From Heptranchias perlo (Eukaryota), in assembly GCF_035084215.1 (NCBI RefSeq), contig NC_090349.1:24614001-24678000 (forward strand): a stretch of DNA of 64,000 nt, in the 5' to 3' direction. How positions within the stretch are numbered: the first letter of the stretch is position 1; each line of letters starts with the position of its first letter. The position numbers were made by a program, and so were the translations under genes. Below are positions 1 to 63,656 of this stretch, in pieces. The notes under the pieces are model-generated. The model made no database searches. It was given only the letters and a program-made list of their open reading frames with translations, and was not told the DNA's origin.

Positions 1-136
1 GTCTGACCTGGTCAAACTACATATTCTACTTCCACTTCTATGTCTGTAGGGACAACTACTAAGAGGTCTCCCTCTTTCATCTCTAATTGTAAACAATTTT
101 ACAACACCAAGTTATAGTCCAGCAATTTTATTTTAA

Positions 137-177
137 ATTCACAAGCTTTCGGAGATTTTCTCCTTCCTCAGGCAAAT
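137..177 (-). ncRNA. Minimal type I hammerhead ribozyme (inverted copy in Penelope arm)
   Basis: Reverse complement of 3393-3433. Confidence 0.7.
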
Positions 178-427
178 GTTTCAAGATCTCCTTGAAGCCT
201 ACGCATTTATACATATTGAACAATAAAACATGGTGTTTACAGACTGCCCCTGCAACTGCCCGTTGCCAAGGCAATCACCGTGTTCAGACAGAGAGGTGTT
301 ACCTGCAGAACCTCCGAATACACATTCAACAAAAAAACAAACAGGGAAAAAAAACAGAGAAAAGAAAAACACAGAGAGAGGCAGAAACATCCGGAAGGCA
401 GAGAGAGCCAGCAAATGACCCATTATA

Positions 428-1645
428 TTAAAAACAGATAACATTTGTTCGCTGGTGGGGTAACGTGTAGCGTGACATGAACCCAAGATCCCGGTTGAGG
501 CCGTCCTCATGGGTGCGGAACTTGGCTATCAATTTCTGCTCGACAATTTTGCGTTGTCGTGTGTCTCGAAGGCCGCCTTGGAGTACGCTTACCCGAAGGT
601 CGGTGGATGAATGTCCATGACTGCTGAAGTGTTCCCCGACTGGGAGGGAACCCTCCTGTTTGGCGATTGTTGCGCGGTGTCCGTTCATCCGTTGTCGCAG
701 CGTCTGCATGGTCTCGCCAATGTACCATGCTCTGGGGCATCCTTTCCTGCAACGTATGAGGTAGACAACGTTGGCTGAGTCACAGGAGTATGAACCATGC
801 ACCTGGTGGGTGGTGTCATCTCGTGTGATGGTGGTATCTGTGTCGATGATCTGGCATGTCTTGCAGAGGTTACCGTGGCAGGGTTGTGTGGCGTCGTGGA
901 CGCTGTTCTCTTGAAAGCTAGGTAGTTTGCTGCGAACGATGGTCTGTTTGAGGTTGGGTGGCTGTTTAAAGGCGAGTAGTGGAGGTGTGGGGATGGCCAT
1001 AGCGAGGTGTTTGTCCTCATTGATGACATGTTGAAGGCTGCGGAGAACATGGCGTAGTTTCTCCGCTCCGGGGAAGTACTGGACGACAAAGGGTACTCTG
1101 TTGGTTGCGTCCCGTGTTAGTCTCCTGAGGAGGTCTATGCGATTTTTTGCTGTGGCCCGTCGGAACTGTCGATCGATGAGTCGAGCGTCATATCCCGTTC
1201 TTACTAGGGCGTCTTTCAGCGTCTGTAGGTGTCCATCGCGTTCCTCCTCGTCTGAGCAGACCCTGTGTATTCGCAGGGCCTGTCCATAGGGGATGGCCTC
1301 TTTGACGTGGTTAGGGTGGAAGCTGGAAAAGTGGAGCATCGTGAGGTTGTCCGTGGGCTTGCGGTAGAGTGAGGTGCTGAGGTGCCCGTCTTTGATGGAG
1401 ATTCGTGTGTCCAAGAAAGAAACTGATTCTGAGGAGTAGTCCATGGTGAGCTTGATGGTGGGATGGAACTTGTTGATGTTATCGTGTAGTCTCTTTAGTG
1501 ATTCCTTGCCGTGGGTCCATAGAAAGAAAATGTCGTCGATGTATCTGGTGTATAGTGTTGGTTGGAGGTCTTGTGCAGTGAAGAAGTCCTGCTCGAACTT
1601 GTGCATGAAAATGTTGGCGTATTGGGGTGCGAATTTGGTCCCCAT
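428..1645 (-). CDS. Penelope RT (C-terminal part) plus GIY-YIG endonuclease, inverted-arm copy, 5'-truncated
   Basis: GTKFAPQYANIFM, YTRYIDDIF, LYRKPT, CxxC linker, VVYLIRC...YIGET...R...E...GLN; identical to the last 405 aa of 1742-3142. Confidence 0.9.
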   Translation of the reverse strand: MGTKFAPQYANIFMHKFEQDFFTAQDLQPTLYTRYIDDIFFLWTHGKESLKRLHDNINKFHPTIKLTMDYSSESVSFLDTRISIKDGHLSTSLYRKPTDNLTMLHFSSFHPNHVKEAIPYGQALRIHRVCSDEEERDGHLQTLKDALVRTGYDARLIDRQFRRATAKNRIDLLRRLTRDATNRVPFVVQYFPGAEKLRHVLRSLQHVINEDKHLAMAIPTPPLLAFKQPPNLKQTIVRSKLPSFQENSVHDATQPCHGNLCKTCQIIDTDTTITRDDTTHQVHGSYSCDSANVVYLIRCRKGCPRAWYIGETMQTLRQRMNGHRATIAKQEGSLPVGEHFSSHGHSSTDLRVSVLQGGLRDTRQRKIVEQKLIAKFRTHEDGLNRDLGFMSRYTLPHQRTNVICF

Positions 1646-1741
1646 GGCTGTTCCGTGTGTTTGGGTAAAGAACTGGTTATCGAAGGTGAAGACATTGTGA
1701 TCCAGGATGAAGCGGATGAGTTGTAGGATGGCTTCCGGAGA

Positions 1742-3142
1742 TTGGCTGTCTCGGCACTATACACCAGTATCCCCCACGATGACGGCATCGCTGCGACAGC
1801 ATCAATACTCAACACCAACAACAGCCAATCTCCGGAAGCCATCCTACAACTCATCCGCTTCATCCTGGATCACAATGTCTTCACCTTCGATAACCAGTTC
1901 TTTACCCAAACACACGGAACAGCCATGGGGACCAAATTCGCACCCCAATACGCCAACATTTTCATGCACAAGTTCGAGCAGGACTTCTTCACTGCACAAG
2001 ACCTCCAACCAACACTATACACCAGATACATCGACGACATTTTCTTTCTATGGACCCACGGCAAGGAATCACTAAAGAGACTACACGATAACATCAACAA
2101 GTTCCATCCCACCATCAAGCTCACCATGGACTACTCCTCAGAATCAGTTTCTTTCTTGGACACACGAATCTCCATCAAAGACGGGCACCTCAGCACCTCA
2201 CTCTACCGCAAGCCCACGGACAACCTCACGATGCTCCACTTTTCCAGCTTCCACCCTAACCACGTCAAAGAGGCCATCCCCTATGGACAGGCCCTGCGAA
2301 TACACAGGGTCTGCTCAGACGAGGAGGAACGCGATGGACACCTACAGACGCTGAAAGACGCCCTAGTAAGAACGGGATATGACGCTCGACTCATCGATCG
2401 ACAGTTCCGACGGGCCACAGCAAAAAATCGCATAGACCTCCTCAGGAGACTAACACGGGACGCAACCAACAGAGTACCCTTTGTCGTCCAGTACTTCCCC
2501 GGAGCGGAGAAACTACGCCATGTTCTCCGCAGCCTTCAACATGTCATCAATGAGGACAAACACCTCGCTATGGCCATCCCCACACCTCCACTACTCGCCT
2601 TTAAACAGCCACCCAACCTCAAACAGACCATCGTTCGCAGCAAACTACCTAGCTTTCAAGAGAACAGCGTCCACGACGCCACACAACCCTGCCACGGTAA
2701 CCTCTGCAAGACATGCCAGATCATCGACACAGATACCACCATCACACGAGATGACACCACCCACCAGGTGCATGGTTCATACTCCTGTGACTCAGCCAAC
2801 GTTGTCTACCTCATACGTTGCAGGAAAGGATGCCCCAGAGCATGGTACATTGGCGAGACCATGCAGACGCTGCGACAACGGATGAACGGACACCGCGCAA
2901 CAATCGCCAAACAGGAGGGTTCCCTCCCAGTCGGGGAACACTTCAGCAGTCATGGACATTCATCCACCGACCTTCGGGTAAGCGTACTCCAAGGCGGCCT
3001 TCGAGACACACGACAACGCAAAATTGTCGAGCAGAAATTGATAGCCAAGTTCCGCACCCATGAGGACGGCCTCAACCGGGATCTTGGGTTCATGTCACGC
3101 TACACGTTACCCCACCAGCGAACAAATGTTATCTGTTTTTAA
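1742..3142 (+). CDS. Penelope reverse transcriptase plus GIY-YIG endonuclease, 5'-truncated (the first codons are created by the inversion junction)
   Basis: 466-aa uninterrupted frame: VSALYTSIP, GTAMGTKFAPQYANIFM, RYIDD, PCHGNLCKTC, VVYLIRC/WYIGET (GIY-YIG), terminal GLN. Confidence 0.93.
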   Translation: MAVSALYTSIPHDDGIAATASILNTNNSQSPEAILQLIRFILDHNVFTFDNQFFTQTHGTAMGTKFAPQYANIFMHKFEQDFFTAQDLQPTLYTRYIDDIFFLWTHGKESLKRLHDNINKFHPTIKLTMDYSSESVSFLDTRISIKDGHLSTSLYRKPTDNLTMLHFSSFHPNHVKEAIPYGQALRIHRVCSDEEERDGHLQTLKDALVRTGYDARLIDRQFRRATAKNRIDLLRRLTRDATNRVPFVVQYFPGAEKLRHVLRSLQHVINEDKHLAMAIPTPPLLAFKQPPNLKQTIVRSKLPSFQENSVHDATQPCHGNLCKTCQIIDTDTTITRDDTTHQVHGSYSCDSANVVYLIRCRKGCPRAWYIGETMQTLRQRMNGHRATIAKQEGSLPVGEHFSSHGHSSTDLRVSVLQGGLRDTRQRKIVEQKLIAKFRTHEDGLNRDLGFMSRYTLPHQRTNVICF

Positions 3143-3392
3143 TATAATGGGTCATTTGCTGGCTCTCTCTGCCTTCCGGATGTTTCTGCCTCTCTCTGTG
3201 TTTTTCTTTTCTCTGTTTTTTTTCCCTGTTTGTTTTTTTGTTGAATGTGTATTCGGAGGTTCTGCAGGTAACACCTCTCTGTCTGAACACGGTGATTGCC
3301 TTGGCAACGGGCAGTTGCAGGGGCAGTCTGTAAACACCATGTTTTATTGTTCAATATGTATAAATGCGTAGGCTTCAAGGAGATCTTGAAAC

Positions 3393-3433
3393 ATTTGCCT
3401 GAGGAAGGAGAAAATCTCCGAAAGCTTGTGAAT
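3393..3433 (+). ncRNA. Minimal type I hammerhead ribozyme in Penelope pLTR
   Basis: ATTTGC-CTGAGGA-A-GGAG(AAAAT)CTCC-GAAA-GC-TT-GTGAAT: core CUGANGA...GAAA, 4-bp stem II, palindromic AAGCTT stem III, stem I ATTTGC/GTGAAT with G-U pairs. Confidence 0.72.
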
Positions 3434-4061
3434 TTAAAATAAAATTGCTGGACTATAACTTGGTGTTGTAAAATTGTTTACAATTGTCAACCCCAGTCCA
3501 TCACCGGCATCTCCACATCTTTCATCTCTAGTTCGCGATCGTTTTCTGAGGTGAGATTCACTTCCGGACTCCCTACCACTACTTGTACTCCACTTTCGTA
3601 CTCTCCACTCTTTTACCCCATTCTGCCAGCCCATGAACCTCGCTTCATGGCCATCATCCTGATCATTCAACCAAAATTTAAACCTACCAGTAGCTTTGCC
3701 AGCACTTCACAAAATTGTTGCGTCCCTCCATTCCTTAATCCCTTCTGGAACATATGTCACCTGTGTACCCACTTGGGGTAATTGTTCTGTGGATGTGATA
3801 GCTGTGTCATGTGTTTTTTGATCACTGACATTACCCACTGTGCAGCCCTTGATCTACCTCAGTCTGTACATCGGGAACCTCATCAGAAAAATCATAAACA
3901 TCTGAGGCACAAGGTGCCTCGTTTACTTCCATCAACTGCTCAGAGTCCGAGATTTTATAATTAATTCCAATTAATCGTGAGGAATGAACTTTAACAGTTT
4001 GATTGTCATGTTGAACAATTACTGTCTTAGCATCACAACCTATTACCTTACTAGGGTCTTT

Positions 4062-13830: not shown

Positions 13831-13899
13831 CAAGCCTACTGTATTCTGCTTACGACAAGTATTCGTTAACATAGAAGACTACCACCTTCGTTAACAACA

Positions 13900-15050
13900 A
13901 TAATGAGGACATGGAGGAGGAAAGGATGGAAGCCAGGAGAGTGCAGCAGCATCTTTGCAGGCAACACCTGACCCACATGTGTCCACTCCACAGGGTCTAC
14001 AGACCAGAGAAGACCTATCTGGATTTTTGCCATGAGAAGTATCTGAGAAACGGCTGAAACTGTGACTGTCATACGTGTTGGAACTTGACATGCAACCTCC
14101 TTCCACATATGAACATAAGATCAGGAGTGGGCCATTCAGCCCGTCGAGCCTGTTCCACCATTCAATTAGATCATGGCTGATCTGTACCTCTGGGGGCACT
14201 GCCTTCTCTGTGGCTGTGAAGGTGACAACAGCCTTTAACTTTTGTGCATCCAGATGCTTCCACGCAGCCTCTGGTAACATTAATCATATCAGTCAGTCGG
14301 ATGTTCATCGCTGCATTACACAGGTCATGGGTGCTCCAGATATGCCACTGAGTTCATTAACACCCACGTGGATACAGCAACGCAGAGAGAAAGAGAGCCA
14401 TCAACTTCTTCCCAAGTGGCTGTAATTCCACAAGATGCAGGGTGTTATTGATACCACCCAGTGGCAATGAAGGTCCTGTCTGGAAACCCCACCAACCTCA
14501 TCAACAGGAAGGGATCTCATTCCCTCAAGCCATCTCATTACGCATGATAATGTGTGTGACCTAGTGTGTAGCCCTGATTAGTTTACTCTCAGTCAATCCA
14601 GGATACTTGGACTGATCATCTTCAGCTATGTGACAGGGTGGCTCATAGGAGACTGGGGTACATGACCCAGCCTTGGCTCATGCCACATTTTTGGCATCTG
14701 AGGACAAAACCTGGGCACTACCAGGATCATTGTAAACAACACCCATCGTATTCTCAATTCCAATTTCCCTGTATTGGGGATTCATGGAGTAACATCCAGC
14801 AAGGGTTTGTAGAACTGTAGTGACTTGCTACAACCTCCATAATGTGGCCATTACAAGGGGATTGCACCTTCCAGGCATAGAAGGTGAAAAGGAAGAAGCT
14901 GAGCTAAATGAAGCCATCTCAAAAATTGTGGAGAGCTCAGGGTGAAGTACACCTGCCTGGATCTTTAGGTGTGGGTATCAGCAGGTCGGGGCCAGTAACT
15001 GCCTAAGGTGCCTGATCAACCTGGCCTCTCTCCACAAATAGAAGTGGACC
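13900..15050 (+). pseudogene. HARBI1-like Harbinger transposase remnant (segment A), with a short inverted CR1/SINE 3' end at ~14110-14190
   Basis: HRVYRPEKTYLDF, SVAVKVTTAFNFCAS, HISQSDVHRCITQV, QGVID, NRKG and GYMTQPWLM motifs across frameshifts. Confidence 0.75.
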
Positions 15051-17801: not shown

Positions 17802-17871
17802 TGTAGGCAATATTACAGTAAACTCAGTCACAGGCACAGAAATGAGTTAATTAACTGAATGATGCACAACG

Positions 17872-25360: not shown

Positions 25361-25429
25361 AAGCCTACCATATTCTGCTTACGACAAGTATTTGTTAACA
25401 GAGAAGACTACCACCTTCATTAACAACAA

Positions 25430-26580
25430 TAATGAGGACATGGAGGAGGAAAGGGTGGAAGCCAGGAGAGTGCAGCAGCATCTTTGCAGGCAACACCTGA
25501 CCCACGTGTATCCACACCACAGGGTCTACAGACCAGAGAAGACTGATCTGGATTTTTCCAATGGGAAGTATCTGAGAAGCTGCTGAGACTGTGACCGTCA
25601 TATGTGTTGGAACTTGACATGCAGCCTCCTTCCACATCGGAACATAAGAACAGAAGTGGGCCATTCAGCCCGTCGAGCATCTTCCACCCTCTGTAGCTCC
25701 GGGGGCACTGCCTTCTCTGTGGCTGTGAAGGTGACCACAGGAGTTAACTTTTATGCATCCAGATGCTTCCACGCAGCCTCTGGTAACATTAATCATATCA
25801 GTCAGTCAGATGTTCATCACTGCATTACACAGGTCATGGGTGCTTCAGACATGTCTCCAACTTCATTCAGACCCACATGCACCCAGCAACGCAGAGAGAA
25901 AGAGAGCCATCAACATCTTCCAAGTGGCTGGAATTCCACAAAATGCAGGGTGTTATTGATACCACCCAGTGGAAATGAAGGCCCTGTCTGGAAACCCCAC
26001 CAACCTCATCAACAGGAAGGGATCTCATTCCCTCAATGTGCAAATAGTGAGTGATGCTAGCCATCTCATTATGCATGTCAATGCATGCGACCTAGGGTGT
26101 AGCCCTGATTAGTTTACTCTCAGTCAATCCAGGATACTAGGATACTTGGACTGATCATCTTCAGCTATGTGACAGGGTGGCTCATAGGAGACTGGGGTAC
26201 ATGACCCAGCCTTGGCTCATGCCACATTTTTGGCATCTGAGGACAAAACTTGGGCACTACCAGGATCATTGTAAACGAGACCCATCGTATTCTCAAGTCC
26301 AATTTCCAGATCATTGAGAATCATGCAGTAACATCTAGCAAGGGTTTGTAGAACTGTAGTGACTTGCTGCAACCTCCATAATGTGGCCATTACAAGGGGA
26401 TTGCACCTTCCAGGCATGGACGGTGAAAAGGAAGAAGCTGAGCTAAATGTAGCCTTCTCAAAAATTGTGGAGAGCTCAGGGTGAAGTACACCTGCCTGGA
26501 TCTTTAGGTGTGGGTATCAGCAGGTCGGGGCCAGTAACTGCCTAAGATGCCTGATCAACCTGGCCTCTCTCCACATATAG
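25430..26580 (+). pseudogene. HARBI1-like transposase remnant, segment B
   Basis: Paralogue of 13900-15050. Confidence 0.72.
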
Positions 26581-28250: not shown

Positions 28251-29303
28251 TCATTGTTGACTCAGTCTGGCATTGATCACAGGTATTACGTTTTTTACGT
28301 TTTTTAGATGTTGATCCACAACTAGTTCTCTTTTCTGCTCTCTTGGTTGAATTCCTTCACTCGTTGCTGATGTGAAAAGGTTTAAATTAAGAGGAACAAG
28401 AGCTTTCTTCAAAGTAACATTAAATGTCGAACTTGAAAAGTGATAAATAACTGGGTCGAGCACACTGTTCAGATATGTCATAAATAGTGTATTATAAAAT
28501 ACCTGAACAGCTGTTACATATGACTTGCAGTCTTCTCTGCGTCTTTGCTTTGTAATTACCACAGCGAGTACAGCAATGTTTGTGGGCAAGAAACAAAATA
28601 TAAAAACTGCTGCCACAGCTATCACAAGCTTTACTGCTCGTTTATATTTACCCCTCATTTCAGTTTCCATCTGTTTTAACTTCCAGATGATACAGGACGT
28701 GGAGTACAGGATAATCGAAGCTGGTAAAATAAAATTGAAAAGAATAAAAACAATATCGGTCCAAATTGTCAGAGGATTTAGAGGCTTGTACATGTTGAAG
28801 GGCTCACAGTATGTCAGATTGTTGTGCTTGAAGTCGTGAGGTTCTGTTAAAATGTGCAAAGAAATTGTCACTGCTAGAATCCACAGAGCACCTGCTACCT
28901 TCACTGCACATCTTGCAGGTATCTTGTTCATTTGATGGTGAGGGTGGACCACCTTAAAATAACGATCGATCGCGGTAGCTGTCAGGAAAACAATGCTCCC
29001 CATCCGGTTTAGGGAAATAAAGAATACATTCAGACGACATGCAACATCACCAAAAATCCAGTTCTTCTCCCGTACAAAGTAATCTGCTCGAAATGGTAAA
29101 CAGCAGATGAACAGAGTGTCTGCAATCGCCAGATTCAGTGAATAAACAGTATTTGGTTTAAAGGACTTTGTATGAAAACAAAAGATCCATAAAGCAATTA
29201 CATTTCCGATGAATCCAAGGATAAATGTTATAATAATTACTGGTGGATTATAGGACGAATTAATGTCTTCAACAGAAGTACATAGCTGGGTCTCGTTGGA
29301 CAT
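28251..29303 (-). CDS. HCAR2/3-like GPCR copy 2, 350 aa, with a frameshifted C-terminal tip
   Basis: Same motifs as copy 1; ATG at 29303; ends KNVKNVIPVINARLSQQ*. Confidence 0.92.
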   Translation of the reverse strand: MSNETQLCTSVEDINSSYNPPVIIITFILGFIGNVIALWIFCFHTKSFKPNTVYSLNLAIADTLFICCLPFRADYFVREKNWIFGDVACRLNVFFISLNRMGSIVFLTATAIDRYFKVVHPHHQMNKIPARCAVKVAGALWILAVTISLHILTEPHDFKHNNLTYCEPFNMYKPLNPLTIWTDIVFILFNFILPASIILYSTSCIIWKLKQMETEMRGKYKRAVKLVIAVAAVFIFCFLPTNIAVLAVVITKQRRREDCKSYVTAVQVFYNTLFMTYLNSVLDPVIYHFSSSTFNVTLKKALVPLNLNLFTSATSEGIQPREQKRELVVDQHLKNVKNVIPVINARLSQQ

Positions 29304-30595
29304 TGTCGGCAATATTACAGTAAACTCAGTCACAGGCACAGAAATGAGTTAATTAACTGAATGATGCACAACGTTATATAGAATTCTTCCACTTTACATC
29401 ATAGATCATGGGTGGGGCTATAATAAAGTCAGACTATTTATCGAGTTATATCGTAAACCTGCCAGCAATTCTACTAGAATACCTTCAATATGCATTTACA
29501 GATAAATCATTCAAACTATACACCAAACCTATGCAAATATATCAGGCTTTGAATTTGGCTGGAGACGTTATGATAACATAAAACTGTATGGTCCTACTCA
29601 TTTTGCCTTCATAGATTCACCCAAAGAGGAAATGCTGTAATATTCCTTTTATCTGCCTTTTTAGAAATTTTGCAATCCATGCTCACTGTCAAGTTTTCAT
29701 TACTGAAATCAAAAAAATATTCAGCTGAGATGGTTATCTACCTCGATATAACCTGCTGATGAGAATGAATTTTATTTTGTAGAAGCTCTTTTTAGTGGAT
29801 TTGTGTCTGGTCCTTAATTTGCAACAGTTCTGAAGCCTTGCAAGAAAAAGTGTTGGTAACTTCCTGCCACACATTCACAGGAGATAAGTGGCTCTTCTGT
29901 CCTCTCTCCACCACAACATCTTTTGCTAATTTTTCTTTTCCTTCAGAAATCATAGAATGGTAACAAGATGGCTTCATGAGGTTTAACGCTTCTGAAATAA
30001 GTGAAAAGGACTATGGGTTGGTACTGTTGCCTCAACTGTACAGTGCGTTCGGCAATTGGGCAGTGTGATTTTAGCACACTTGCAATATAACACTGTGAAT
30101 TTTTGCAAAATCAGTGGTGTGTTGTCGGTAGTGACAGCTCCGTGATGAACTGACTTTGCTGCACTTGTATTAATGCATCCAGTACTCTCCTGATGGTAGT
30201 GAATCGTGATAGGGTACGGATTCATTCTTCAAATTTGAATCCCACATTAAGTGCTGGCAGGATATTATATGGTGTTGGATGGCAGGGTACCAGCAGACAA
30301 ACCCAAATCTGTCCTCACCCAGTTGCCACACAAACAGGCCTAGAAATTCAATCACGTCCAAAAACGGGCACACAGTGTTGTGCACTGCACGCGCCTTTTC
30401 AAGTTATACCAGGCTGCACGTTAAATTGATGCAGGTGTGCGGGTAGTGCGACCTATGCTATTCATTTGCTGCACGCCTCTTTGGCAGGTCTGGATATCGG
30501 ATGTCTCTGACACCACTTAAAGGCAGCCAGCAACTCTTAAAGGGGAGGTGCACTCTGGCAGCAGACAGCAGGAAGCGCCTGCTGTAAGGAGAGAA

Positions 30596-38623: not shown

Positions 38624-38694
38624 TAAGCCTACCATATTCTGCTTACAACAAGTATTTGTTAACATGGAAGACTACCACCTTCATTAACAACAAT

Positions 38695-39830
38695 AATGAG
38701 GACATGGAGGAGGAAAGGGTGGAAGCCAGGAGAGTGCAGCAGCATCTTTGCAGGCAACACCTGACCCACATGTATCCACACCACAGGGTCTACAGACCAG
38801 AGAAGACCGATCTGGATTTTTCCAATGGGAAGTATTTGAGAAGCTGCTGAGACTGTGACCGTCATATGTGTTGGAACTTGACATGCCGCCTCCTTCCACA
38901 TCGGAACATAAGAACAGAAGTGGGCCATTCAGATCGTCGAGCATCTTCCACCCTCTGTAGCTCCGGGGGCACTGCCTTCTCTGTGGCTGTGAAGGTGACC
39001 ACAGGAGTTAACTTTTATGCATCCAGATGCTTCCACGCAGCCTCTGGTAACATTAATCATATCAGTCAGTCAGATGTTCATCACTGCATTACACAGGTCA
39101 TGGGTGCTTCAGACAAGACTCTAAGTTCATTCAGACCCACATGCACCCAGCAACGCAGAGAGAAAGAGAGCCATCAACATCTTCCAACTGGCTGGAATTC
39201 CACAAAATGCAGGGTGTTATTGATACCACCCAGTGGAAATGAAGGCCCTGTCTGGAAACCCCACCAACCTCATCAACAGGAAGGGATCTCATTCTCTCAA
39301 TGTGCAAATAGTGAGTGATGCTAGCCATCTCATTATGCATGTCAATTCATGCGACCTAAGGTGTAGCCCTGATTAGTTAACTCTCAGTCAATCCAGGATA
39401 CTTGGACTGATCATCTTCAGCTATGTGACAGGGTGGCTCATAGGAGACTGGGGTACATGACCCAGCCTTGGCTCATGCCACATTTTTGGCATCTGAGGAC
39501 AAATCTTGGGCACTACCAGGATCATTGTAAACGAGACCCATCGTATTCTCAAGTCCAATTTCCAGATCATGGAGAATCATGCAGTAACATCCAGCAAGGG
39601 TTTGTAGAACTGTAGTGACTTGCTGCAACCTCCATAATGTGGCCATTACAAGGGGATTGCACCTTCCAGGCATAGACGGTGAAAAGGAAGAAGCTGAGCT
39701 AAATGTAGCCTTCTCAAAAATTGTGGAGAGCTCAGGGTGAAGTACACCTGCCTGGATCTTTAGGTGTGGGTATCAGCAGGTTGGGGCCACTAAGGTGCCT
39801 GATCAACCTGGCCTCTCTCCACATACAGAA
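38695..39830 (+). pseudogene. HARBI1-like transposase remnant, segment C
   Basis: Paralogue of 13900-15050. Confidence 0.72.
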
Positions 39831-41526: not shown

Positions 41527-42588
41527 TCATACATTCATTGTTGACTCAGTCTGGTATTGATCACAGGTATTACAGACCGGTACGTTTTTTAGATGTTGAT
41601 CCACAACTAGTTCTCTTTTGGGCTCTCTTGGTTGAATTCCTTCACTCGTTGCTGATGTGAAAAGGTTTAAATTAAGAGGAACAAGAGCTTTCTTCAAAGT
41701 AACATTAAATGTCGAACTTGAAAAGTGATAAATAACTGGGTCGAGCACACTGTTCAGATATGTCATAAATAGTGTATTATAAAATACCTGAACAGCTGTT
41801 TCATATGACTTGCAGTCTTCTCTGCGTCTTTGCTTTGTAATTACCACAGCGAGTACAGCAATGTTTGTGGGCAAGAAACAAAATATAAAAACTGCTGCCA
41901 CAGCTATCACAAGCTTTACTGCTCGTTTATATTTACCCCTCATTTCAGTTTCCATCTGTTTTAACTTCCAGATGATAAAGGACGTGGAGTACAGGATAAT
42001 CGAAGCCGGTAAAATAAAATTGAAAAGAATGAAAACAATATCGGTCCAAATTGTCAGAGGATTTAGAGGCTTGTACATGTTGAAGGGCTCACAGTATGTC
42101 AGATTGTTGTGCTTGAAGTCGTGAGGTTCTGTTAAAATGTGCAAAGAAATTGTCACTGCTAGAATCCACAGAGCACCTGCTACCTTCACTGCACATCTTG
42201 CAGGTATCTTGTTCATTTGATGGTGAGGGTGGACCACCTTAAAATAACGATCGATCGCCGTAGCTGTAAGGAAAACGATGCTCCCCATCCGGTTTAGGGA
42301 AATAAAGAATAGATTCAGACGACATGCAACATCACCAAAAATCCAGTTCTTCTCCCGTACAAAGTAATCTGCTCGAAATGGTAAACAGCAGATTAGCAGA
42401 GTGTCTGCAATCGCCAGATTCAGTGAATAAACAGTATTTGGTTTAAAGGACTTTGTATGAAAACAAAAGATCCATAAAGCAATTACATTTCCGATGAATC
42501 CAAGGATAAATGTTATAATAATTACTGGTGGATTATAGGACGAATTAATGTCTTCAACAGAAGTACATTGCTGGGTCTCGTTGGCCAT
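41527..42588 (-). CDS. HCAR2/3-like GPCR copy 3, 353 aa
   Basis: Same motifs; ATG at 42588. Confidence 0.93.
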   Translation of the reverse strand: MANETQQCTSVEDINSSYNPPVIIITFILGFIGNVIALWIFCFHTKSFKPNTVYSLNLAIADTLLICCLPFRADYFVREKNWIFGDVACRLNLFFISLNRMGSIVFLTATAIDRYFKVVHPHHQMNKIPARCAVKVAGALWILAVTISLHILTEPHDFKHNNLTYCEPFNMYKPLNPLTIWTDIVFILFNFILPASIILYSTSFIIWKLKQMETEMRGKYKRAVKLVIAVAAVFIFCFLPTNIAVLAVVITKQRRREDCKSYETAVQVFYNTLFMTYLNSVLDPVIYHFSSSTFNVTLKKALVPLNLNLFTSATSEGIQPREPKRELVVDQHLKNVPVCNTCDQYQTESTMNV

Positions 42589-43865
42589 TGTAGGCAATAT
42601 TACAGTAAACTCAGTCACAGGCACAGGAATGAGTTAATTAACTGAATGATGCACAACGTTATATAGAATTCTTCCACTTTACATCATAGATCATGGGTGG
42701 GGCTATAATAAAGACAGACTATTTATCGAGTTATATCGTAAACCTGCCAGCAATTCTACTAGAATACCTTCAATATGCATTTACAGATAAATCATTCAAA
42801 CTATACACCAAACCTATGCAAATATATCAGCCTTTGAATTTGGCTGGAGATTTTATGATAACATAAAACTGTATGGTCCTACTCATTTTGCCTTCCTGGA
42901 TTCACCCAAAGAGGAAATGCTGCAATGTTCCTTTTATCTGACTTGTTGGACATTTTGCAATCCATGCTCACTGTCAAGTTTTCATTACCGAAATCAAAAA
43001 ACTATTCAGCAGAGATGGTTATCTACCTCTATATAACCTGCTGATGAGAATTAATTTTATTTTGTAGAAGCTAATTTTAGTGGATTTGTGTCTGTTCCTT
43101 AATTTGCAACAGTTCTGAAGCCTTGCAAAAAAAAGTGTTGGTAACTTCCTGCCACACATTCACAGGAGGTAAGTGGCTCTTCTGTCCTCTTTCCACCACA
43201 ACATCCTTTGCTAATTTTGCTTTTCCTTCAGAAATCATAGAATGGTAACAAGATGGCTTCATGTGGTTTAACGCTTCTGAAACATGGGTTGGTAATGTTG
43301 CTCAACTGGACAGTGCGTTCGGCAATTGGGCAGTGTGATTTTTACACACTCGCAGTATAACACTGTGAATTTTTCCAAAATCAGTAGTGTGTTGTCGGTA
43401 GTGACAGCACTGTGATGAACTGACTTTGCTGCACTTGTATTAATGCATCCAGTACTCTCCTGATGGTAGTGAATCGTGATAGGGTACGGATTCATTCTTC
43501 AAATTTGAATCCCACATTAAGTGCTGGCAGGGTATTATATGGTGTTGGATGGCAGGGTACCAGCAGACAAACCCAAATCTGTCCTCACCCAGTTGCCACA
43601 CAAACAGGCCAAGAAATTCAATCACGTCTAAAAACGGGCACACAGTGGTGTGCACTGCACGCGCCTTTTCAAGTTATACCAGGCTGCACGTTAAATTGAT
43701 GCAGGTGTGCGGGTAGTGCGACCCATGCTATTCATTCACTGCATGTCTCTTTGGCAGGTCCGGATATCGGATGTCTCTGACACCACTTCAAGGCAGCCAG
43801 CAACTCTTAAAGGGGAGGTGCACTCTGGCAGCAGACAGCAGGAAGCGCCTGCTGTAAGGAGAGAA

Positions 43866-51600: not shown

Positions 51601-51634
51601 GACACTTAGGCCTAGATTTACCTTTAAAAAACTG

Positions 51635-51807
51635 TAAACAATTTTACAACACCAAGTTGTAGTCCAGCAATTTTATTTTAAATTCACAAGCTTTCGGAGG
51701 AAGCCTCCGAAAGCTTGTGAATTTAAAATAAAATTGCTGGACTATAACTTGGTGTTGTAAAATTGTTTACAATTATCAACCCCAGTCCATCACCGGCATC
51801 TCCACAT
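51635..51807 (+). mobile_element. Miniature Penelope insertion: 68-bp hairpin plus tail
   Basis: Arms 51633-51700/51704-51771 (1 mismatch), loop AAG, tail ending CAACCCCAGTCCATCACCGGCATCTCCACAT, 13-bp TSD CTTTAAAAAACTG at 51622-51634/51808-51820. Confidence 0.92.
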
Positions 51808-52566
51808 CTTTAAAAAACTGCCCATTTTCTGGCATGTTTAAAGGCAGTCTGGCAAGTAAAATGGAATGCAGGAGCTCTCTGACACAACTCCACCTCTTAA
51901 AAGAGCCACCATGATTTCCCTCCCATGACACCTCTGTGATGCTGATCCGCCCACTGCAAGTGCATCGCGCCGCAGGATGCATGGCCAAGTGCCCCCGCCC
52001 CCACCCCAGCCCCAGAGATTGTCCTGTGTTTGTGTAGATGCAAATGGTGTCACTCAAGATCACATCTCACCTCGTTAACTGTTGAATTACTTTGGGCGCC
52101 TATGACCCTGTTACTTGATAAACAACCAACAAAGACAGTCAATCTAGGGAAAGATAACAAGTACAGGGAAGTCACACTTCACACTAGACAGAACACAGAA
52201 ATCTGTGTGAAATCAAGCTTTGATGGGAGAAATGTCACACATGGTTTGAGTGAATAAAGACACAGCAATCTTTGTGGGGAAATGGCCGTTTCAAAGCCAG
52301 TTGCCTTTAAGTGGTGTTTGAATGGCAGATAGAGACGATCAGTATGTATTAAATAGGTTTCAGTGTCCAGAGTATGAGGAAAAGGTGGCATAAAGGGACC
52401 ATGCTTTGCCTGTTAGTTGTGTACAATACTGAAGCTGCTGTCTCTACTGTACTCATTCCAGCCTACCTCTGGATACAAAGAACGTATATCTATGTTTGAT
52501 TGTACCCTATTTGTTCAAACTGCTTTTAATAAAGGATAGAGTTTCTTTTAATTGGAAGAAGTTGAG

Positions 52567-53334: not shown

Positions 53335-53497
53335 CAAGCCTACTGTATTCTGCTTACGACAAGCATTTGTTAACATAGAAGACGATCACCTTCGTTAACA
53401 ACAATAACGAGGATGTGGAGATGCCGGTGATGGACTGGGGTTGACAATTGTAAACAATTTTACAACACCAAGTTATAGTCCAACAATTTTATTTGAA

Positions 53498-53538
53498 ATT
53501 CACAAGCTTTCGGAGGCTTCCTCCTTCCTCAGGTGAAT
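53498..53538 (-). ncRNA. Minimal type I hammerhead ribozyme in Penelope pLTR
   Basis: Reverse complement reads ATTCAC-CTGAGGA-A-GGAGG(AAG)CCTCC-GAAA-GC-TT-GTGAAT. Confidence 0.75.
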
Positions 53539-53803
53539 GTTGTGGAAATGAAATCCTCGAACCCTTCGCATTTATAAATCACAGAACAATACCTGGTGAT
53601 TACAGATAGTCTTTCCAACTGCCCGTTGCCAAGGCAATCACAGTGTGCAGACAGAGAGGTGTTACCGACAAGGCCACCGAATATACAAACACCCAAAAAA
53701 CAAAGAGAGAGAGAGGCAGAAACATAGAAACATCCGGAAGGAAGAGAAACACAGCAAATGACCCGTTATATTAAAAACAGATAACATTTGTTCGCTGGTG
53801 GGG

Positions 53804-55640
53804 TTACGTGTAGCGTGACATGAACCCAAGATCCCGGTTGAGGCCGTCCTCATGGGTGCGGAACTTGGCTATCAATTTCTGCTCGACGATTTTGCGTTGT
53901 CGTGTGTCTCGAAGGCCGCCTTGGAGTATGCTTACCCAAAGGTCGGTGGCTGAATGTCCTTGACTGCTGAAGTGTTCCCCGACTGGGAGGGAACCCTCCT
54001 GTCTGGCGATTGTTGCGCGGTGTCCGTTCATCCGTTGTCACAGCGTCTGCATGGTCTCGCCAATGTACCATACTCTGGGGCATCCTTTCCTGCAATGTAT
54101 GAGGTAGACAACGTTGGCCGAGTCACAGGAGTATGAACCATGCACCTGGTGGGTGGTGTCCTCTCGTGTGATGGTGGTATCTGTGTCGATGATCTGGCAT
54201 GTCTTGCCGAGGTTACTGTGGCAGGGTTGTGTGGTGTCGTGGACGCTGTTCTCCTGAAAGCTGGGTAATTTGCTGCGAACGATGGTCTGTTTGAGGTTGG
54301 GTGGCTGTTTAAAGGCGAGTAGTAGAGGTGTGGGGATGGCCATAGCGAGGTGTTCGTCGTCATTGATGACATGTTGAAGGCTGCGGAGAACATGGCGTAG
54401 TTTCTCCGCTCCGGGGAAGTACTGGACGACGAAGGGTACTCTGTTGGTTGCGTCCCGTGTTAGTCTTCTGAGGAGGTCTATGCGATTTTTCGCTGTGGCC
54501 CGTCGGAACTGTCAATCGATGAATCGAGCGTCATATCCCGTTCTTACTAGGGCGTCTTTCAGCGTCTGTAGGTGTCCATCGCGTTCCTCCTCGTCTGAGC
54601 AGACCCTGTGTATTCGCGGGGCCTGTCCATAGGGGATGGCCTCTTTGACGTGGTTAGGGTGGAAGCTGGAAAAGTGGAGCATCGTGAGGTTGTCCGTGGG
54701 CTTGCGGTAGAGTGAGGTGCTGAGGTGCCTGTCTTTGATGGAGATTCGTGTGTCCAAGAAAGAAACTGATTCTGAGGAGTAGTCCATGGTGAGCTTGATG
54801 GTGGGATGGAACTTGTTGATGTTATCGTGTAGTCTCTTTAGTGATTCCTCGCCGTGGGTCCATAGAAAGAAAATGTCATCGATGCATCTGGTGTATAGTG
54901 TTGGTTGAAGGTCCTGTGCAGTGAAGAAGTCCTGCTCGAACTTGTGCATGAAAATGTTGGCGTATTGGGGTGCGAATTTGGTCCCCATGGCTGTTCCGTG
55001 TGTTTGGGTAAAGAACTGGTTATCGAAGGTGAAGACATTGTGATCCAGGATGAAGCGGATGAGTTGTAGGATGGCGTCTGGAGATTGGCTGTTGTTGGTG
55101 TTGAGTATTGATGCTGTCGCAGCGATGCCGTCATCGTGGGGGATACTGGTGTAGAGTGCCGAGACGTCCATCGTGGTGAGAAGTGTTCCTGGTTCAACTG
55201 GTCTGTGGGTACTGAGTTTTTGTCGGAAGTCTGTAGTGTCGCGACAGAAGCTGGGGGTTCACTGTACGATGGGTTTCAGGATGCCCTCGATGTATCCAAA
55301 GAGGTTCTCACACAGGGTTCCGTTGCCTGATACGATAGGACGTCCGGGTGTGTTGGCTTTGTGTATCTTTGGGAGGCAGTAGAAGTACGTGGGATGAGAG
55401 CGCGTAGGATGCTTTGAAGGTCTGGATCGAAGGTCTTGATCAGTTTGTTGAGCTGGTGGGTGTGTTCTTTGGTCGGATCTACAGGTAACCGTCTGTAGTG
55501 ATCCTGGTTGTCCAGTTGTCGGTATGCTTCTTTGCAATTGTCCGTTCTGTTTTGTATGACGATGGCTCCTCCTTTGTCCGCTGGTTTGATGACGATGTTG
55601 CGGTTGGTCTTGAGAGCGTTGATGGCGTTGTGCTCGGGTG
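53804..55640 (-). pseudogene. Penelope RT-GIY-YIG ORF, disrupted
   Basis: Fragments 55276-55740, 55259-55537, 54512-55171, 54038-54343 and 53804-54031; YIDD mutated to CIDD. Confidence 0.88.
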
Positions 55641-56398
55641 ACATTCTGGACTGTCTTCTGAGTGCGGCTGAGTGCCAGCTTTCAGGAGAACAGCGTCCAT
55701 GACACCACACAACCCTGCCACGGTAACCTCTGCAAGACATGCCAGATCATCAACACAGATACCACCATCACACGAGAGGACACCACCCACCAGGTGCATG
55801 GTTCATACTCCTGTGATTCGGCCAACGTTGTCTACCTCATACGTTGCAGGAAAGGATGCCCCAGAGCATGGTACATTGGCGAGACCATGCAGACGCTGCG
55901 ACAACGGATGAACGGACACCGCGCAACCATCGCCAGACAGGAGGGTTCCCTCCCAGTCGGGGAACACTTCAGCAGTCAAGGACATTCAGCCACCGACCTT
56001 CGGGTGAGCATACTCCAAGGCGGCTTCGAGACACACGACAACGCAAAATCGTCGAGCAGAAATTGATAGCCAAGTTCCGCACCCATGAGGACGGCCTCAA
56101 CTGGGATCTTGGGTTCATGTCACGCTACACATAACCCCACCAGCGACAAATGTTAACTGTTTTTAATATAACGGGTCATTTGCTGTGTTTCTCTTCCTTC
56201 CGGATGTTTCTATGTTTCTGCCTCTCTCTCTCTTTGTTTTTTGGGTGTTTGTATATTCAGTGGCCTTGTAGGTAACACCTCTCTGTCTGCACACTGTGAT
56301 TGCCTTGGCAACGGGCAGTTGGAAAGACTATCTGTAATCACCAGGTATTGTTCTGTGATTTATAAATGCGAAGGGTTCGAGGATTTCATTTCCACAAC

Positions 56399-56439
56399 AT
56401 TCACCTGAGGAAGGAGGAAGCCTCCGAAAGCTTGTGAAT
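56399..56439 (+). ncRNA. Minimal type I hammerhead ribozyme (inverted-arm copy)
   Basis: ATTCAC CTGAGGA A GGAGG AAG CCTCC GAAA GC TT GTGAAT; perfect 6-bp stem I and 5-bp stem II. Confidence 0.75.
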
Positions 56440-56494
56440 TTCAAATAAAATTGTTGGACTATAACTTGGTGTTGTAAAATTGTTTACAACAATA

Positions 56495-60022: not shown

Positions 60023-61084
60023 TCATACATTCATTGTTGACTCAGTCTGGCATTGATCACAGGTATTACAGACCGGTGCCTTTTTTAGATGTTGATCCAC
60101 AACTAGTTCTCTTTTGGGCTCTCTTGGTTGAATTCCTTCACTCGTTGCTGATCTGAAAAGGCTTAAATTAAGAGGAACAAGAGCTTTCTTCAAAGCATCT
60201 TTAAATGTCGAACTTGAAAAATAGTAAATGACTGGGTCGAGCACACTGTTCAGATATGTCACAAATAGCGTATTATAAAATACATGAACAGCTGTTTCAT
60301 ATGATTTGCAGTCTTCTGTGGCTCTTTGCTTTGTAATTATAACAGCGAGTACAGCAATGTTTGTGGGCAAGAAACAAAATATAAAAACCGCTGCCACAGC
60401 TATCACAAGCTTTACTGCTCGTTTATATTTACCCCTCATTTCAGTTTCCATCTGTTTTAACTTCCAGATGATGCAGGACGTGGAGAACAGGATAATCGAA
60501 GCTGGTAAAACAAACTTGAAAAGAATAAAAACAGTGTCGGTCCAAATTGTCAGAGGATTTCCACGCTGGTATACGTTGAAGGGCTCACAGTATGTCAGAT
60601 TGTTGTGCTTGAAGGTGTGCGGTTCTGACAAAAGGTGTGAACAAATTGCCACTGCTAGAATCCACAGAGCACCTGCTACCTTCACTGCACATCTTGTAGG
60701 TATCTTGTTCACTTTATGGTGAGGGTGGACCACCTTAAAATAGCGATCGATCGCCGTAACTGTAAGGAAAACGATGCTCCCTACCCGGTTTAGGGAAATC
60801 AAAAATACCTTCAGACGACATGCAACATCGCCAAAAATCCAGTTCTTCTCCCGTACGAAGTAATCTGCTCGAAATGGTAAACAGCAGATGAGCAGAGTGT
60901 CTGCAATCGCCAGATTCAGTGAATAAACAGTATTTGGTTTCCAGGATTTTGCATGAAAACAAAAGATCCATAAAGCAATTACATTTCCAATGAATCCGAG
61001 AATAAATGTTATAATAATTACTGGTGGATTGTAGGACGAATGAATGTCTTCAACAGACGCACAAAACTGGGTCTCGTTGTCCAT
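60023..61084 (-). CDS. HCAR2/3-like GPCR copy 4 (most divergent), 353 aa
   Basis: Same motifs; retains HCAR-like KSWK and DPVIYYFSS; ATG at 61084. Confidence 0.93.
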   Translation of the reverse strand: MDNETQFCASVEDIHSSYNPPVIIITFILGFIGNVIALWIFCFHAKSWKPNTVYSLNLAIADTLLICCLPFRADYFVREKNWIFGDVACRLKVFLISLNRVGSIVFLTVTAIDRYFKVVHPHHKVNKIPTRCAVKVAGALWILAVAICSHLLSEPHTFKHNNLTYCEPFNVYQRGNPLTIWTDTVFILFKFVLPASIILFSTSCIIWKLKQMETEMRGKYKRAVKLVIAVAAVFIFCFLPTNIAVLAVIITKQRATEDCKSYETAVHVFYNTLFVTYLNSVLDPVIYYFSSSTFKDALKKALVPLNLSLFRSATSEGIQPREPKRELVVDQHLKKAPVCNTCDQCQTESTMNV

Positions 61085-61959
61085 TGTAGGCAGTATTGCA
61101 GTAAACTCAGTCACAGGCACAGAAATGAGTTAATTAACTGAATGATGCACAACCTTATATAGTACTCTTCCACTCTACATCATAGATCATAGGTGGGGCT
61201 ATAATAGTCATAATATTAAACGAGTTATATTATAAACTTACCAGCAATACTCCTAAATACCTTAAATATGCATTTACAGCGAAATCATTCAATTTATGCA
61301 GCAAACCTATTAGAATATGTCAGGCTTTGAATTTGGCTGTTTGTTAAGGTATTATCAGAACTTTGTGGTTTACAACATAAAACTGTATGTTTCTATTTAT
61401 TTTGTATTGAGTACATTCACCTCTTTTCGTAGAAAAAAATTCAGTCACGTTACTTTTAACTGCTTTGTTAGATAGAAGTTTTGCAATCCATGTTCACTGT
61501 CAAGGTTTCTTTCCCGGTATCGGAAAATTAAATCCTATAAACTACTGATGGGAATGAGTATGAAAGGGGATTTGAGACTGAATTGTTTTGTAGAAAAGGC
61601 ACTTTTCGACTGATGTGATTCTTGACCTGACGTTGCTTCTCCCCGGCGATGTGCTTTGTGAAAAACTTTTCCCTAACAAATCATAGAACTGTAATTAAAA
61701 TAGCATCAGATTGTTTTGCTCTTCTAAAGCGACATGGGCTGGCAATGTAGCCTCAGTTGTACTGTGTGTTTGGCAATGTGATTTTTCCACACTCGAAGTA
61801 TGATCTATTTCCAATAGTGACGCCATCTTGAAGAGATAGCCTCACACCACCGGTCTTACTGTATGTAGAGCCCTCCTCTCCCGAAGGAAGCGAATCATGA
61901 TAGGGGTTCGGTTCCATGTGCCTCTTTTCGCATTTAAATCTAAGTGTTGACAGGTTATT

Positions 61960-62200: not shown

Positions 62201-62728
62201 AATCAGCAACTGAAAGGAAAGGAATAATTCTAAAAAATATTTGTTTCCAATGAGAATATAAGTGCTGATTCGGATCCCGCCTGAAATAGCACCAGGATCA
62301 CTCTGTTCTCACAGGACTTTCCACAATAAGAATGTAAACGCAAACTCGCTCAATTCAGCAACGTGAGCTCAATGTAATTTGAACGTATGTTTACACAAGC
62401 GCAGAGAATGTTAGGATTGCAGCAGGCTGCCATCATACACACTCCTCCCACTAAAGTGGCATTTAGCAGGAGCTCTCGATTAGGAAGCAGAAGACAGTCA
62501 CCAAAAGGAATCGTGAGGAAAAGAAACAGTACTAGCATATCCTCAGAATACTAGTAGGGAAATATACTGGATGCACTTTATTTCAATATAGTTTTCAATG
62601 CTCTTCTGAAAAAGGGCATGCGAACATGGGAGAATTATTGTTGATTGTAATGGATGGCATGGTGTTTGTGGGATCACTGTATTGCACTCATTGGATAGGA
62701 GTGTTCATACATTGGTCGGATTACAGGC

Positions 62729-62810
62729 TTATGTGAAAGTCCTGTCAATCAATGATTGGCGTACAAATCTCCCTGGCTGCACGTTACCTTCAACCATTTC
62801 TTCCTCCTCC
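62729..62810 (-). pseudogene. Possible Harbinger transposase C-terminal tail
   Basis: EEDQEEEEMVEGNVQPGRFVRQSLIDRTFT*: acidic tract plus R..LI...F terminus typical of HARBI1-like transposases. Confidence 0.5.
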
Positions 62811-63656
62811 TGGTCCTCTTCTGTCAAGGGTTTGTTGCTGCACCTCATGGTCCTCTTCTGCCAAGGGTTTGTTGCTGCACCTCCTGGTCCTCTTCTGTCA
62901 AGGGTTTGTTGCTGCACCTCATGGTCCTCTTCTGTCAAGGGTTTGTTGCTGCACCTCATGGTCCTCTTCTGTCAAGGGTTTGTTGCTGCACCTCATGGTC
63001 CTCTTCTGCCAAGGGTTTGTTGCTGCACCTCCTGATCCTCTTCTGTCAAGGGTTTGTTGCTGCACCTCCTGATCCTCTTCTGTCAAGGGTTTGTTGCTGC
63101 ACCTCCTGGTCCTCTTCTGTCAAGGGTTTGTTGCTGCACCTCCTGGTCCTCTTCTGTCAAGGGTTTGTTGCTGCACCTCATGGTCCTCTTCTGTCAAGGG
63201 TTTGTTGCTGCACCTCCTGATCCTCTTCTGCCAAGGGTTTGTTGCTGCACCTCCTGGTCCTCTTCTGTCAAGGGTTTGTTGCTGCACCTCATGGTCCTCT
63301 TCTGTCAAGGGTTTGTTGCTGCACCTCCTGATCCTCTTCTGTCAAGGGTTTGTTGCTGCACCTCCTGGTCCTCTTCTGTCAAGGGTTTGTTGCTGCACCT
63401 CATGGTGCTCTTCTGTCAAGGGTTTGTTGCTGCACCTCCTGGTCCTCTTCTGTCAAGGGTTTGTTGCTGCACCTCATGGTCCTCTTCTGTCAAGGGTTGG
63501 CACTGCACCTCCTGGTCCTCTTCTGTCAAGGGTTTGTTGCTGCACCTCATGGTCCTCTTCTGTCAAGGGTTGGCACTGCACCTCCTGGTCCTCTTCTGTC
63601 AAGGGTTTGTTGCTGCACCTCATGGTCCTCTTCTGTCAAGGGTTGGCACTGCACCT
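62806..63656. repeat. 37-bp minisatellite, about 23 copies (CCTC[A/C]TGGTCCTCTTCTGTCAAGGGTTTGTTGCTGCA), with 36-bp variants at the right end
   Basis: Direct reading; no spacers between units. Confidence 0.95.

What the first reader, a model, noticed from the sequence alone, without database searches (positions are those of the whole stretch)
51622..51820. Mini-Penelope whose fold-back point is exactly the hammerhead ribozyme stem II hairpin
Seen: a 173-bp insertion with a 13-bp TSD, made of a 68-bp hairpin plus the standard tail. The hairpin apex GGAGG-AAG-CCTCC is stem II and loop of the ribozyme seen intact at 56413-56425. Inference: the nascent cDNA stopped just past stem II, snapped back on this native hairpin and self-primed the inverted arm. 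The ribozyme fold would then double as a DNA self-priming signal. This could repeatedly generate MITE-like palindromic elements de novo from a retrotransposon.
Basis: partly seen in the sequence, partly recalled or inferred. Interest (0 to 1): 0.85.

Follow-up and report, generated by a model that had tools for sequence, protein, structure and literature searches.

The report
Two-ended Penelope insertion joined at ribozyme
This is a real 173-base palindromic insertion of a Penelope-like retrotransposon, one of over 20,000 short ones in this genome, and because the loop at its ribozyme-derived centre faces either way across copies (77 versus 59), such palindromes were likely made by two reverse transcripts started from opposite DNA strands and joined head to head, not by one transcript folding back on itself.

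Summary
Observation confirmed: 13-bp TSD, 68-bp arms, 36-nt Penelope tail, apex at stem II of a minimal hammerhead. The stem II apex recurs (at least 136 tailed copies, several subfamilies, separate TSDs) and is about 12-23-fold enriched among clean junctions of that size. It is still only 0.6% of 21,394 short palindromes, and other microhomologies are as hot or hotter.

Snap-back fails as the general rule. It predicts a sense loop always, yet 59 of 136 loops are antisense. It also predicts that the tail-less arm is never the longer one, yet it is longer in 20 of 50 sampled copies (tail arm longer in 18; extreme case 2,939 vs 106 nt).

Both arms end mostly at or just inside a predicted TATA/Inr start site. 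Best model (about 0.65): both target strands are primed (dual priming), short cDNAs run off the RNA 5' end, and they are joined at self-complementary patches such as stem II. This would explain the long-unexplained inverted-pLTR-plus-tail architecture of Penelope-like elements. Snap-back remains possible for this single copy, whose loop is sense. No MITE-like amplification was seen.

The parts
51622..51634 (+). Left target-site duplication (13 bp; last 2 nt also match the element end)
51635..51700 (-). Inverted, tail-less arm (antisense copy from just inside the tail back to the 3' strand of stem II)
   Evidence: 1 mismatch to the sense arm
51696..51708 (+). Junction = hammerhead stem II plus loop, GGAGG-AAG-CCTCC, loop in sense orientation; 5-nt microhomology
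51704..51771 (+). Sense arm: 3' half of the hammerhead (CCTCC GAAA GC TT GTGAA) and the pLTR sequence after it
51772..51807 (+). Penelope tail (36 nt), which in full-length units runs into the ORF start ATG
   Evidence: PMC11167929
51808..51820 (+). Right target-site duplication
56400..56438 (+). Intact minimal type I hammerhead (TTCAC CTGAGGA A GGAGG AAG CCTCC GAAA GC TT GTGAA) in the tail-less arm of the neighbouring long copy
56361..56392 (+). TATAAAT (56361-56367) and Inr-like TCATTTC (56386-56392): predicted pLTR promoter and start site near which short arms end
   Evidence: sequence; arm-end mapping; the start site itself is inferred
53412..56489 (-). Longer copy of the same family and architecture: tail arm about 2.26 kb, inverted tail-less arm about 0.81 kb, 14-bp TSD; empty site in three paralogous units of the window
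85..3519 (+). Long copy: 1,665-bp perfect palindrome, 71-nt sense spacer, tail, 12-bp TSD; RT-coding frame at 1727-3142

Best explanation
The 173-bp element is a likely non-mobile short insertion of an endonuclease-containing Penelope-like retrotransposon, likely made by priming both strands of the cut target, so that two short cDNAs, which would run off the 5' end of the element's RNA, were joined head to head through the self-complementary stem II sequence. Steps: (1) Staggered cut giving a 12-14 bp TSD: shown by sequence. (2) One target 3' end primes at the tail-end start site and the other at the start site about 35 nt inside: inferred from the two fixed ends and the two in vitro start sites of the anole element. 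(3) Each cDNA is short because the start sites near the 5' end of a pLTR-promoted RNA leave only about 100-140 nt to copy: arm ends shown, start site predicted. (4) Two same-sense cDNAs pair at a quasi-palindrome (stem II: 5+5 bp around a 3x3 mismatch), flaps are trimmed, and the mismatched loop is resolved either way: inferred; the 77:59 outcome is shown. Stem II is one of several such patches, not a dedicated priming signal.
For: Loop orientation relative to the tail: 77 sense, 59 antisense. After collapsing duplicates found this is 76:56, p=0.10 against 1:1. In the young AAA/TTT subfamily it is 14:16 (counted from the two listings; p=0.86). All 336 natural hammerhead matches have AAG/AAA/TAA/TAG/GAA loops. 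Arm lengths in 50 TSD-flanked inverted copies: tail arm longer 18, tail-less longer 20, equal 12; in the 90 copies of the stem II size class 25, 51, 14. L065 has a 2,939 vs 106 nt split inside one 13-bp TSD. Arm ends: 27 of 50 tail arms and 22 of 50 tail-less arms end 19-43 nt upstream of the ribozyme's GAAAG. 90 of 104 arm ends lie 28 nt or more after the TATA, 25 of them at 29-30, and the upper edge moves with each subfamily's TATA spacing. Non-inverted copies with TSDs end in the same zone. Microhomology of 4 nt or more at 27 of 81 clean junctions, against about 6% expected. L369 and L284 carry arms with different known subfamily variants inside one TSD. Computed DNA energies: intermolecular stem II duplex -8.9, hairpin -2.8 kcal/mol (concentration ignored). 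PMC11167929: the anole protein cleaves and extends both target strands, is a predicted dimer, starts at two sites flanking the tail, and uses uncleaved RNA.
Against: No biochemical test here. The start site is predicted from TATA/Inr motifs only; no raw RNA reads were available. The slight sense excess (57%; 95% interval 49-66%) leaves room for up to about 30% snap-back events, and this copy has a sense loop. Arms are mostly identical (94 of 150) and long arms tend to pair with long arms, which two fully independent RNAs would not obviously give; same-RNA or coupled priming must be assumed. Mixed-subfamily arms are few (2 clear, about 3 weak, of about 150) and could come from gene conversion; one candidate (L368) was a nested insertion. 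99 of 180 junctions had extra or unassigned bases, partly because my reference set lacked some subfamilies. The 25:51 excess of longer tail-less arms in one size class is unexplained. The tail sample is the first part of one contig, not a random draw.
Confidence: 0.65

Rival explanations
1. One reading: one cDNA stops past stem II, folds back on the native hairpin and copies itself (true for this copy, or for a minority of copies).
For: This copy has a sense loop and a junction exactly at the stem base. The cDNA can form the hairpin (-2.8 kcal/mol). Slight sense excess, 76:56. Both long copies in the window have the tail arm longer. Self-priming was proposed for Penelope palindromes in PMC3846280.
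Against: Cannot give antisense loops (59 of 136) or longer tail-less arms (20 of 50; 51 of 90). The AAA-CA-TTT apex has a 2-nt loop and occurs in both orientations (2 and 2 of 30).
Confidence: 0.14
2. A longer palindrome was inserted and later lost its centre by slippage between the two stem II copies, which are direct repeats across the arms (like Tn10 nearly precise excision; recalled).
For: Predicts both loop orientations and microhomology. Long perfect palindromes exist as possible precursors (window 85-3519).
Against: Arm-to-arm divergence over the same 58 nt is the same for stem II copies (1.3-1.4%, 59 copies), other short copies (1.2%, 26) and long copies (1.2%, 10) (small sample; arms may be homogenised). 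The youngest subfamily already has 30 such copies. It does not explain why arms, and non-inverted copies, end at the predicted start site. 1.7-3 kb palindromes persist.
Confidence: 0.11
3. Snap-back first, then the loop or spacer is flipped later by template switching or recombination between the arms.
For: Loop microinversions in hairpins are known (recalled).
Against: Needs near-saturating flips even in the youngest copies with identical arms (14:16), and for kilobase spacers (L065, L106).
Confidence: 0.05
4. The minis are a non-autonomous, MITE-like family amplified from one or a few short masters.
For: At least 136 near-identical short copies.
Against: At least seven stem II or arm variants matching the autonomous subfamilies, in both orientations. 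Tail ends extend 0-14 nt into the ORF start; no shared right flank among 68 copies; 0 of 68 share this copy's private bases. The mini lacks the TATA/Inr.
Confidence: 0.03
5. RNA self-priming on an antisense template (PMC3846280).
For: Proposed to explain head-to-head palindromes and intron retention.
Against: Gives no reason for 1:1 orientation, for arm ends at the sense start site, or for a tail that matches sense-template start sites (PMC11167929).
Confidence: 0.02

Closest known systems
EN+ Penelope-like elements with inverted pLTR and tail (PMC3846280, PMC8557442, PMC11167929)
   Same: RT plus C-terminal GIY-YIG-type ORF, about 3.08-kb tandem units, hammerhead in the pLTR, inverted 5'-truncated arm, tail at one end, short TSD.
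   Different: Here the inverted form is the commonest product and mostly tiny (21,394 short palindromes against 49,709 exact tail matches; different patterns, so a rough ratio). The cited papers leave its origin undefined or ascribe it to self-priming.
L1 dual priming (proposed in PMC2837659) and twin priming (described there and in 10.1101/2024.12.14.628481)
   Same: Both target strands primed, two cDNAs in opposite orientation within one TSD, internal junction expected to show microhomology.
   Different: L1 twin priming copies different parts of one RNA and gives inversion-deletions. Here both cDNAs copy the same stretch and give palindromes. Dual priming was speculative for L1; here it looks like the main mode.
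Minimal type I hammerhead ribozymes of metazoan PLEs (PMC4209133)
   Same: Conserved core, extra nucleotide before stem II, no helix III loop, palindromic positions 15.2-16.2, pLTR location.
   Different: The mini keeps only stem II and the 3' half, so it has no complete sense ribozyme; stem II acts as DNA microhomology.
Minus-strand strong-stop DNA of LTR elements (recalled)
   Same: A short cDNA from a start site near the RNA 5' end that runs off the template.
   Different: Target-primed, not tRNA-primed; it appears to be inserted rather than transferred.
Non-LTR retrozymes (10.64898/2026.07.22.740005) and MITEs
   Same: Short, non-coding, PLE-pLTR-related (retrozymes) or palindromic (MITEs).
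   Different: No tandem units with a full ribozyme; no sign of amplification from a short master; one-sided tail.

Membership tests
EN+ Penelope-like element (parent family) | Single ORF with RT | tested here: met
   902-aa ORF in the natural unit of L125; Pfam RVT_1 E 2.8e-10
EN+ Penelope-like element (parent family) | C-terminal GIY-YIG endonuclease with CCHH motif | tested here: inconclusive
   VVY...YIG, CxxxxCxxC and two His seen by eye (motif forms recalled); no Pfam GIY-YIG hit
EN+ Penelope-like element (parent family) | Tandem or partial-tandem units forming pLTRs; inverted truncated copy; 30-40 bp tail at one end; TSD | tested here: met
   Units of 3,069-3,082 bp; 56 inverted copies among 87 terminal tails; 36-nt tail and 13-bp TSD
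EN+ Penelope-like element (parent family) | Placement in a named clade (Poseidon, Neptune, Nematis) | not tested
   No tree built
Minimal type I hammerhead of PLEs | CUGANGA and GAAA core, NUH site, extra nucleotide before stem II, palindromic 15.2-16.2 | tested here: met
   Four intact copies in the window; 91 distinct variants in fetched loci (the core was required by the search pattern)
Minimal type I hammerhead of PLEs | Stem II and stem I pairing kept across variants | tested here: met
   Stem II pairs 82-100% paired, with G-C/A-T exchange at pair 5; stem I inner three pairs 85-93% (no shuffle control)
Minimal type I hammerhead of PLEs | Self-cleavage | not testable with these tools
   Needs an assay
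cDNA snap-back product | Loop or spacer always sense relative to the primed (tail) end | tested here: not met
   59 of 136 antisense; met for this single copy
cDNA snap-back product | Copied arm never longer than the template arm | tested here: not met
   20 of 50; 51 of 90
Dual-priming product | Two opposite cDNAs within one TSD, either one longer, microhomology at the inner junction | tested here: met
Dual-priming product | Two RNA templates | tested here: inconclusive
   2 clear mixed-subfamily copies of about 150; 94 of 150 have identical arms
MITE or non-autonomous family | Fixed ends and shared descent from a short master | tested here: not met
   Variable ends, many subfamilies, no shared flanks or private bases among 68 copies

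The most novel reading that the evidence does not exclude
Penelope-like elements normally integrate by two-ended priming: a protein dimer extends both target strands from the two start sites that flank the tail. The commonest products are strong-stop-like cDNAs that run off the RNA 5' end and are joined head to head. This one mechanism would account for the inverted pLTR, the one-sided tail and tens of thousands of mini-palindromes, with the ribozyme's stems serving as joining microhomologies.
Probability: 0.5. Interest if true: 0.8.

Novelty: new variant of a known kind. Interest (0 to 1): 0.62.

Why it matters
PMC8557442 calls the tandem and inverted structures of Penelope-like elements the result of 'still undefined features' of their cycle. 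This genome holds tens of thousands of such products, and two simple read-outs (loop orientation, and which arm is longer) separate the models without bench work. They reject fold-back as the rule and point to priming of both strands, a mode only speculated for L1. The model is directly testable in the existing anole in vitro system. It also shows a retrotransposon seeding more than 20,000 short DNA palindromes, a likely source of false miRNA and MITE annotation and possibly of hairpin RNA and fragile sites (untested).

Tried and rejected
Rfam: no hammerhead call; miRNA hits below gathering score reflect the palindrome only. Search for an empty-site paralog of the mini in the window: none. One search used a wrong spacer and its 2 hits were not used; one search is the corrected search. 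Sequencing runs: no RNA holder listed on record, only contigs, so no start sites or expression could be read; no empty-site or longer-allele joint among the rows shown, which is no evidence either way. L368 looked like mixed-subfamily arms but is a nested insertion: rejected. L329 matched my stem II pattern but carries an insertion, so I count 5 of 90, not 6; the folds printed there (14-28x) become about 12-23x. The TSD caller gave 58 of 60 matches of 8 nt or more, but for about five copies with tail sequence at both ends the window missed the true end, so those calls are unreliable. In one search one long copy (687002p) and one mini (L167) were dropped as misaligned, and 3 of 14 long and 3 of 29 short copies gave no comparable arm. 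Ribozyme cleavage as the source of the short ends: not favoured, since most arms extend past the cleavage site and through the whole ribozyme. Earlier-findings look-ups returned nothing. Literature searches listed no paper whose title, abstract start or passages that I read propose twin or dual priming or strong-stop run-off for Penelope-like elements. The library lacks most subscription papers (older Penelope reviews may hold such a model), and no supplements were read.

Full report
OBSERVATION. The insertion is as described: TSD at 51622-51634 and 51808-51820, 173 nt between, 68-bp arms with one mismatch, AAG loop and a 36-nt tail. The apex is stem II of a minimal type I hammerhead, intact at 56400-56438 and at three other places in the window. 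Its form fits the PLE ribozymes of PMC4209133 (parts 1-2 of 4 read). Two longer copies in the window (85-3519; 53412-56489) share the layout of inverted tail-less arm, sense arm, tail and TSD.

FAMILY. The genome is 3.25 Gb and holds 49,709 exact matches to a 26-nt tail word. Tandem units of 3.07-3.08 kb carry a 902-aa ORF that starts right after the tail, hits RVT_1 and ends in a GIY-YIG-like motif seen by eye. This is an endonuclease-type Penelope-like family; its clade was not determined.

RECURRENCE OF THE APEX. A stem II apex occurs at 171 loci; 136 match with the tail attached. Of 60 fetched copies, 58 gave a flanking duplication of 8 nt or more (median 13; about five calls unreliable) and at least seven stem II variants, each matching a natural subfamily. 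Among 68 copies none shared a right flank or this copy's private bases, and tail ends ran 0-14 nt into the ORF start.

IS STEM II SPECIAL? Short palindromes by central gap (stem II = 73): 27-57 nt, 1,598; 58-88 nt, 2,358; 89-119 nt, 10,514; 120-150 nt, 6,924. Stem II copies are about 6% of their class and 0.6% of the total (the patterns differ, so these ratios are rough). In 90 fetched copies of that class, 5 had the clean stem II junction (5 of 38 clean junctions) against 0.6-1.1% expected, about 12-23-fold (with L329 removed). A GCTT microhomology junction was just as common (5 of 90). An AAA-CA-TTT junction just upstream of stem I made up 4 of 30 in the largest class. Microhomology of 4 nt or more marked 27 of 81 clean junctions against about 6% expected. 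Stem II is therefore one good microhomology among several.

TEST OF SNAP-BACK. A cDNA primed at the tail that folds back must keep the loop in sense and cannot make a copy longer than itself. Loops are 77 sense and 59 antisense; 76:56 after collapsing duplicates; 14:16 in the youngest subfamily. Antisense loops are not natural variants (0 of 336). I fetched 80 stretches around the first tail matches on contig 1. They held 97 tails: 10 were set aside (7 internal, 3 duplicates), 56 were inverted, 31 non-inverted or unresolved. In the 50 inverted copies with a tail-less end and a TSD, the tail arm was longer in 18, the tail-less arm in 20, equal in 12. L065 has 2,939 against 106 nt within one 13-bp TSD. 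In the four size classes the splits were 6:7, 25:51, 11:13 and 6:7. Both predictions fail. The window's own copy has a sense loop, so it alone cannot decide.

WHY SO SHORT. Arm ends pile up 19-43 nt upstream of the ribozyme's GAAAG (27 of 50 tail arms, 22 of 50 tail-less arms). A TATA lies 58-68 nt upstream depending on subfamily. 90 of 104 mapped arm ends lie 28 nt or more after it, 25 of them at 29-30, and the upper edge shifts with the spacing (about 28-30, 31 and 38 nt for TATA distances of 58, 61 and 67). In the 67-nt subfamily the commonest end is the A of an Inr-like TCATTTT. Several non-inverted copies with TSDs end in the same zone. I infer run-off at the 5' end of an RNA started in the pLTR. 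PMC3846280 (passages read) notes TATA and Inr in rotifer pLTRs. No RNA ends could be read here.

MODEL. PMC11167929 (parts 1-2 of 4 read) shows that the anole protein cuts and extends both target strands, is a predicted dimer, starts at two sites that flank the tail, and uses uncleaved RNA. If each target end is primed at one of these sites, the product is a head-to-head pair with the tail on one side, either arm longer, joined by microhomology. Two identical cDNAs can pair antiparallel at stem II (computed -8.9 against -2.8 kcal/mol for the hairpin), leaving a 3x3 mismatch that is resolved either way. Two copies with arms from different subfamilies inside one TSD (L369, L284) fit two templates, though conversion is possible and most arms are identical (94 of 150). 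The closest named mechanism is L1 dual priming, proposed but not shown in PMC2837659 (passages read).

RIVALS. Later loss of the centre of a long palindrome also predicts mixed loops. But stem II copies are no older than long ones by arm divergence (1.3-1.4% against 1.2%; only 10 long copies), and collapse would not end arms at the predicted start site. Later loop flipping would need saturation in the youngest copies. A minority of true snap-backs, up to about 30%, is not excluded.

LITERATURE SEEN. PMC11167929 and PMC4209133: parts 1-2 of 4. 10.64898/2026.07.22.740005: part 1 of 5. PMC8557442, PMC3846280, PMC2837659 and 10.1101/2024.12.14.628481: passages. Tn10 nearly precise excision, strong-stop DNA, hairpin loop inversion and TATA-to-start spacing are recalled. 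The searches showed no paper proposing dual priming for Penelope-like elements, within a library that lacks most subscription journals; supplements were not read.

VERDICT. Real feature of a known element class and known architecture. The population of copies points to a different, testable integration mechanism. Interest 0.62; new variant of a known kind.

Noticed in passing
window 85-3519: A 1,665-bp, 100% perfect inverted repeat with a 71-nt spacer (young Penelope-like copy) is retained intact; junction microhomology is about 2 nt.
   Followed up: partly
window 16740-17846, 28251-29348, 41527-42633, 60023-61129 (minus): Tandem array of single-exon ORFs of about 365-368 aa in 11-18 kb segmental repeats; the one scanned hits Pfam 7tm_1 (rhodopsin-family GPCR, E 2e-48).
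   Followed up: partly
window 53412-56489 vs 13846-13958, 25375-25487, 38639-38751: The long copy sits in one unit of the segmental repeat; three paralogous units show the empty site.
   Followed up: partly
window about 62658-63623: Tandem repeat with a 37-bp period.
   Followed up: no
L059, L085, L116, L176, L181, L052, L087, L077, L137 and others: Independent insertions recur at the same target words inside other repeats (3-4 times each among 292 distinct tail flanks), suggesting target preference near TATAAA-like sequence.
   Followed up: partly
L326 (G000:C1:65429827-65429972) and L232: Inner junctions hold inserted pieces that match other parts of the element (ORF start in L326; ORF end in L232), suggesting template jumps during joining.
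   Followed up: no
L370, L135 and others: Some short palindromes carry tail sequence at both ends, as expected if both ends can start at the tail-end site.
   Followed up: partly
L368 (G000:C1:19311050-19311560): One short palindrome of the family inserted into the centre of another.
   Followed up: yes
run X10 (organism C): Another organism's contigs hold the same ribozyme-plus-tail stretch at high identity, so the family extends beyond this species.
   Followed up: no
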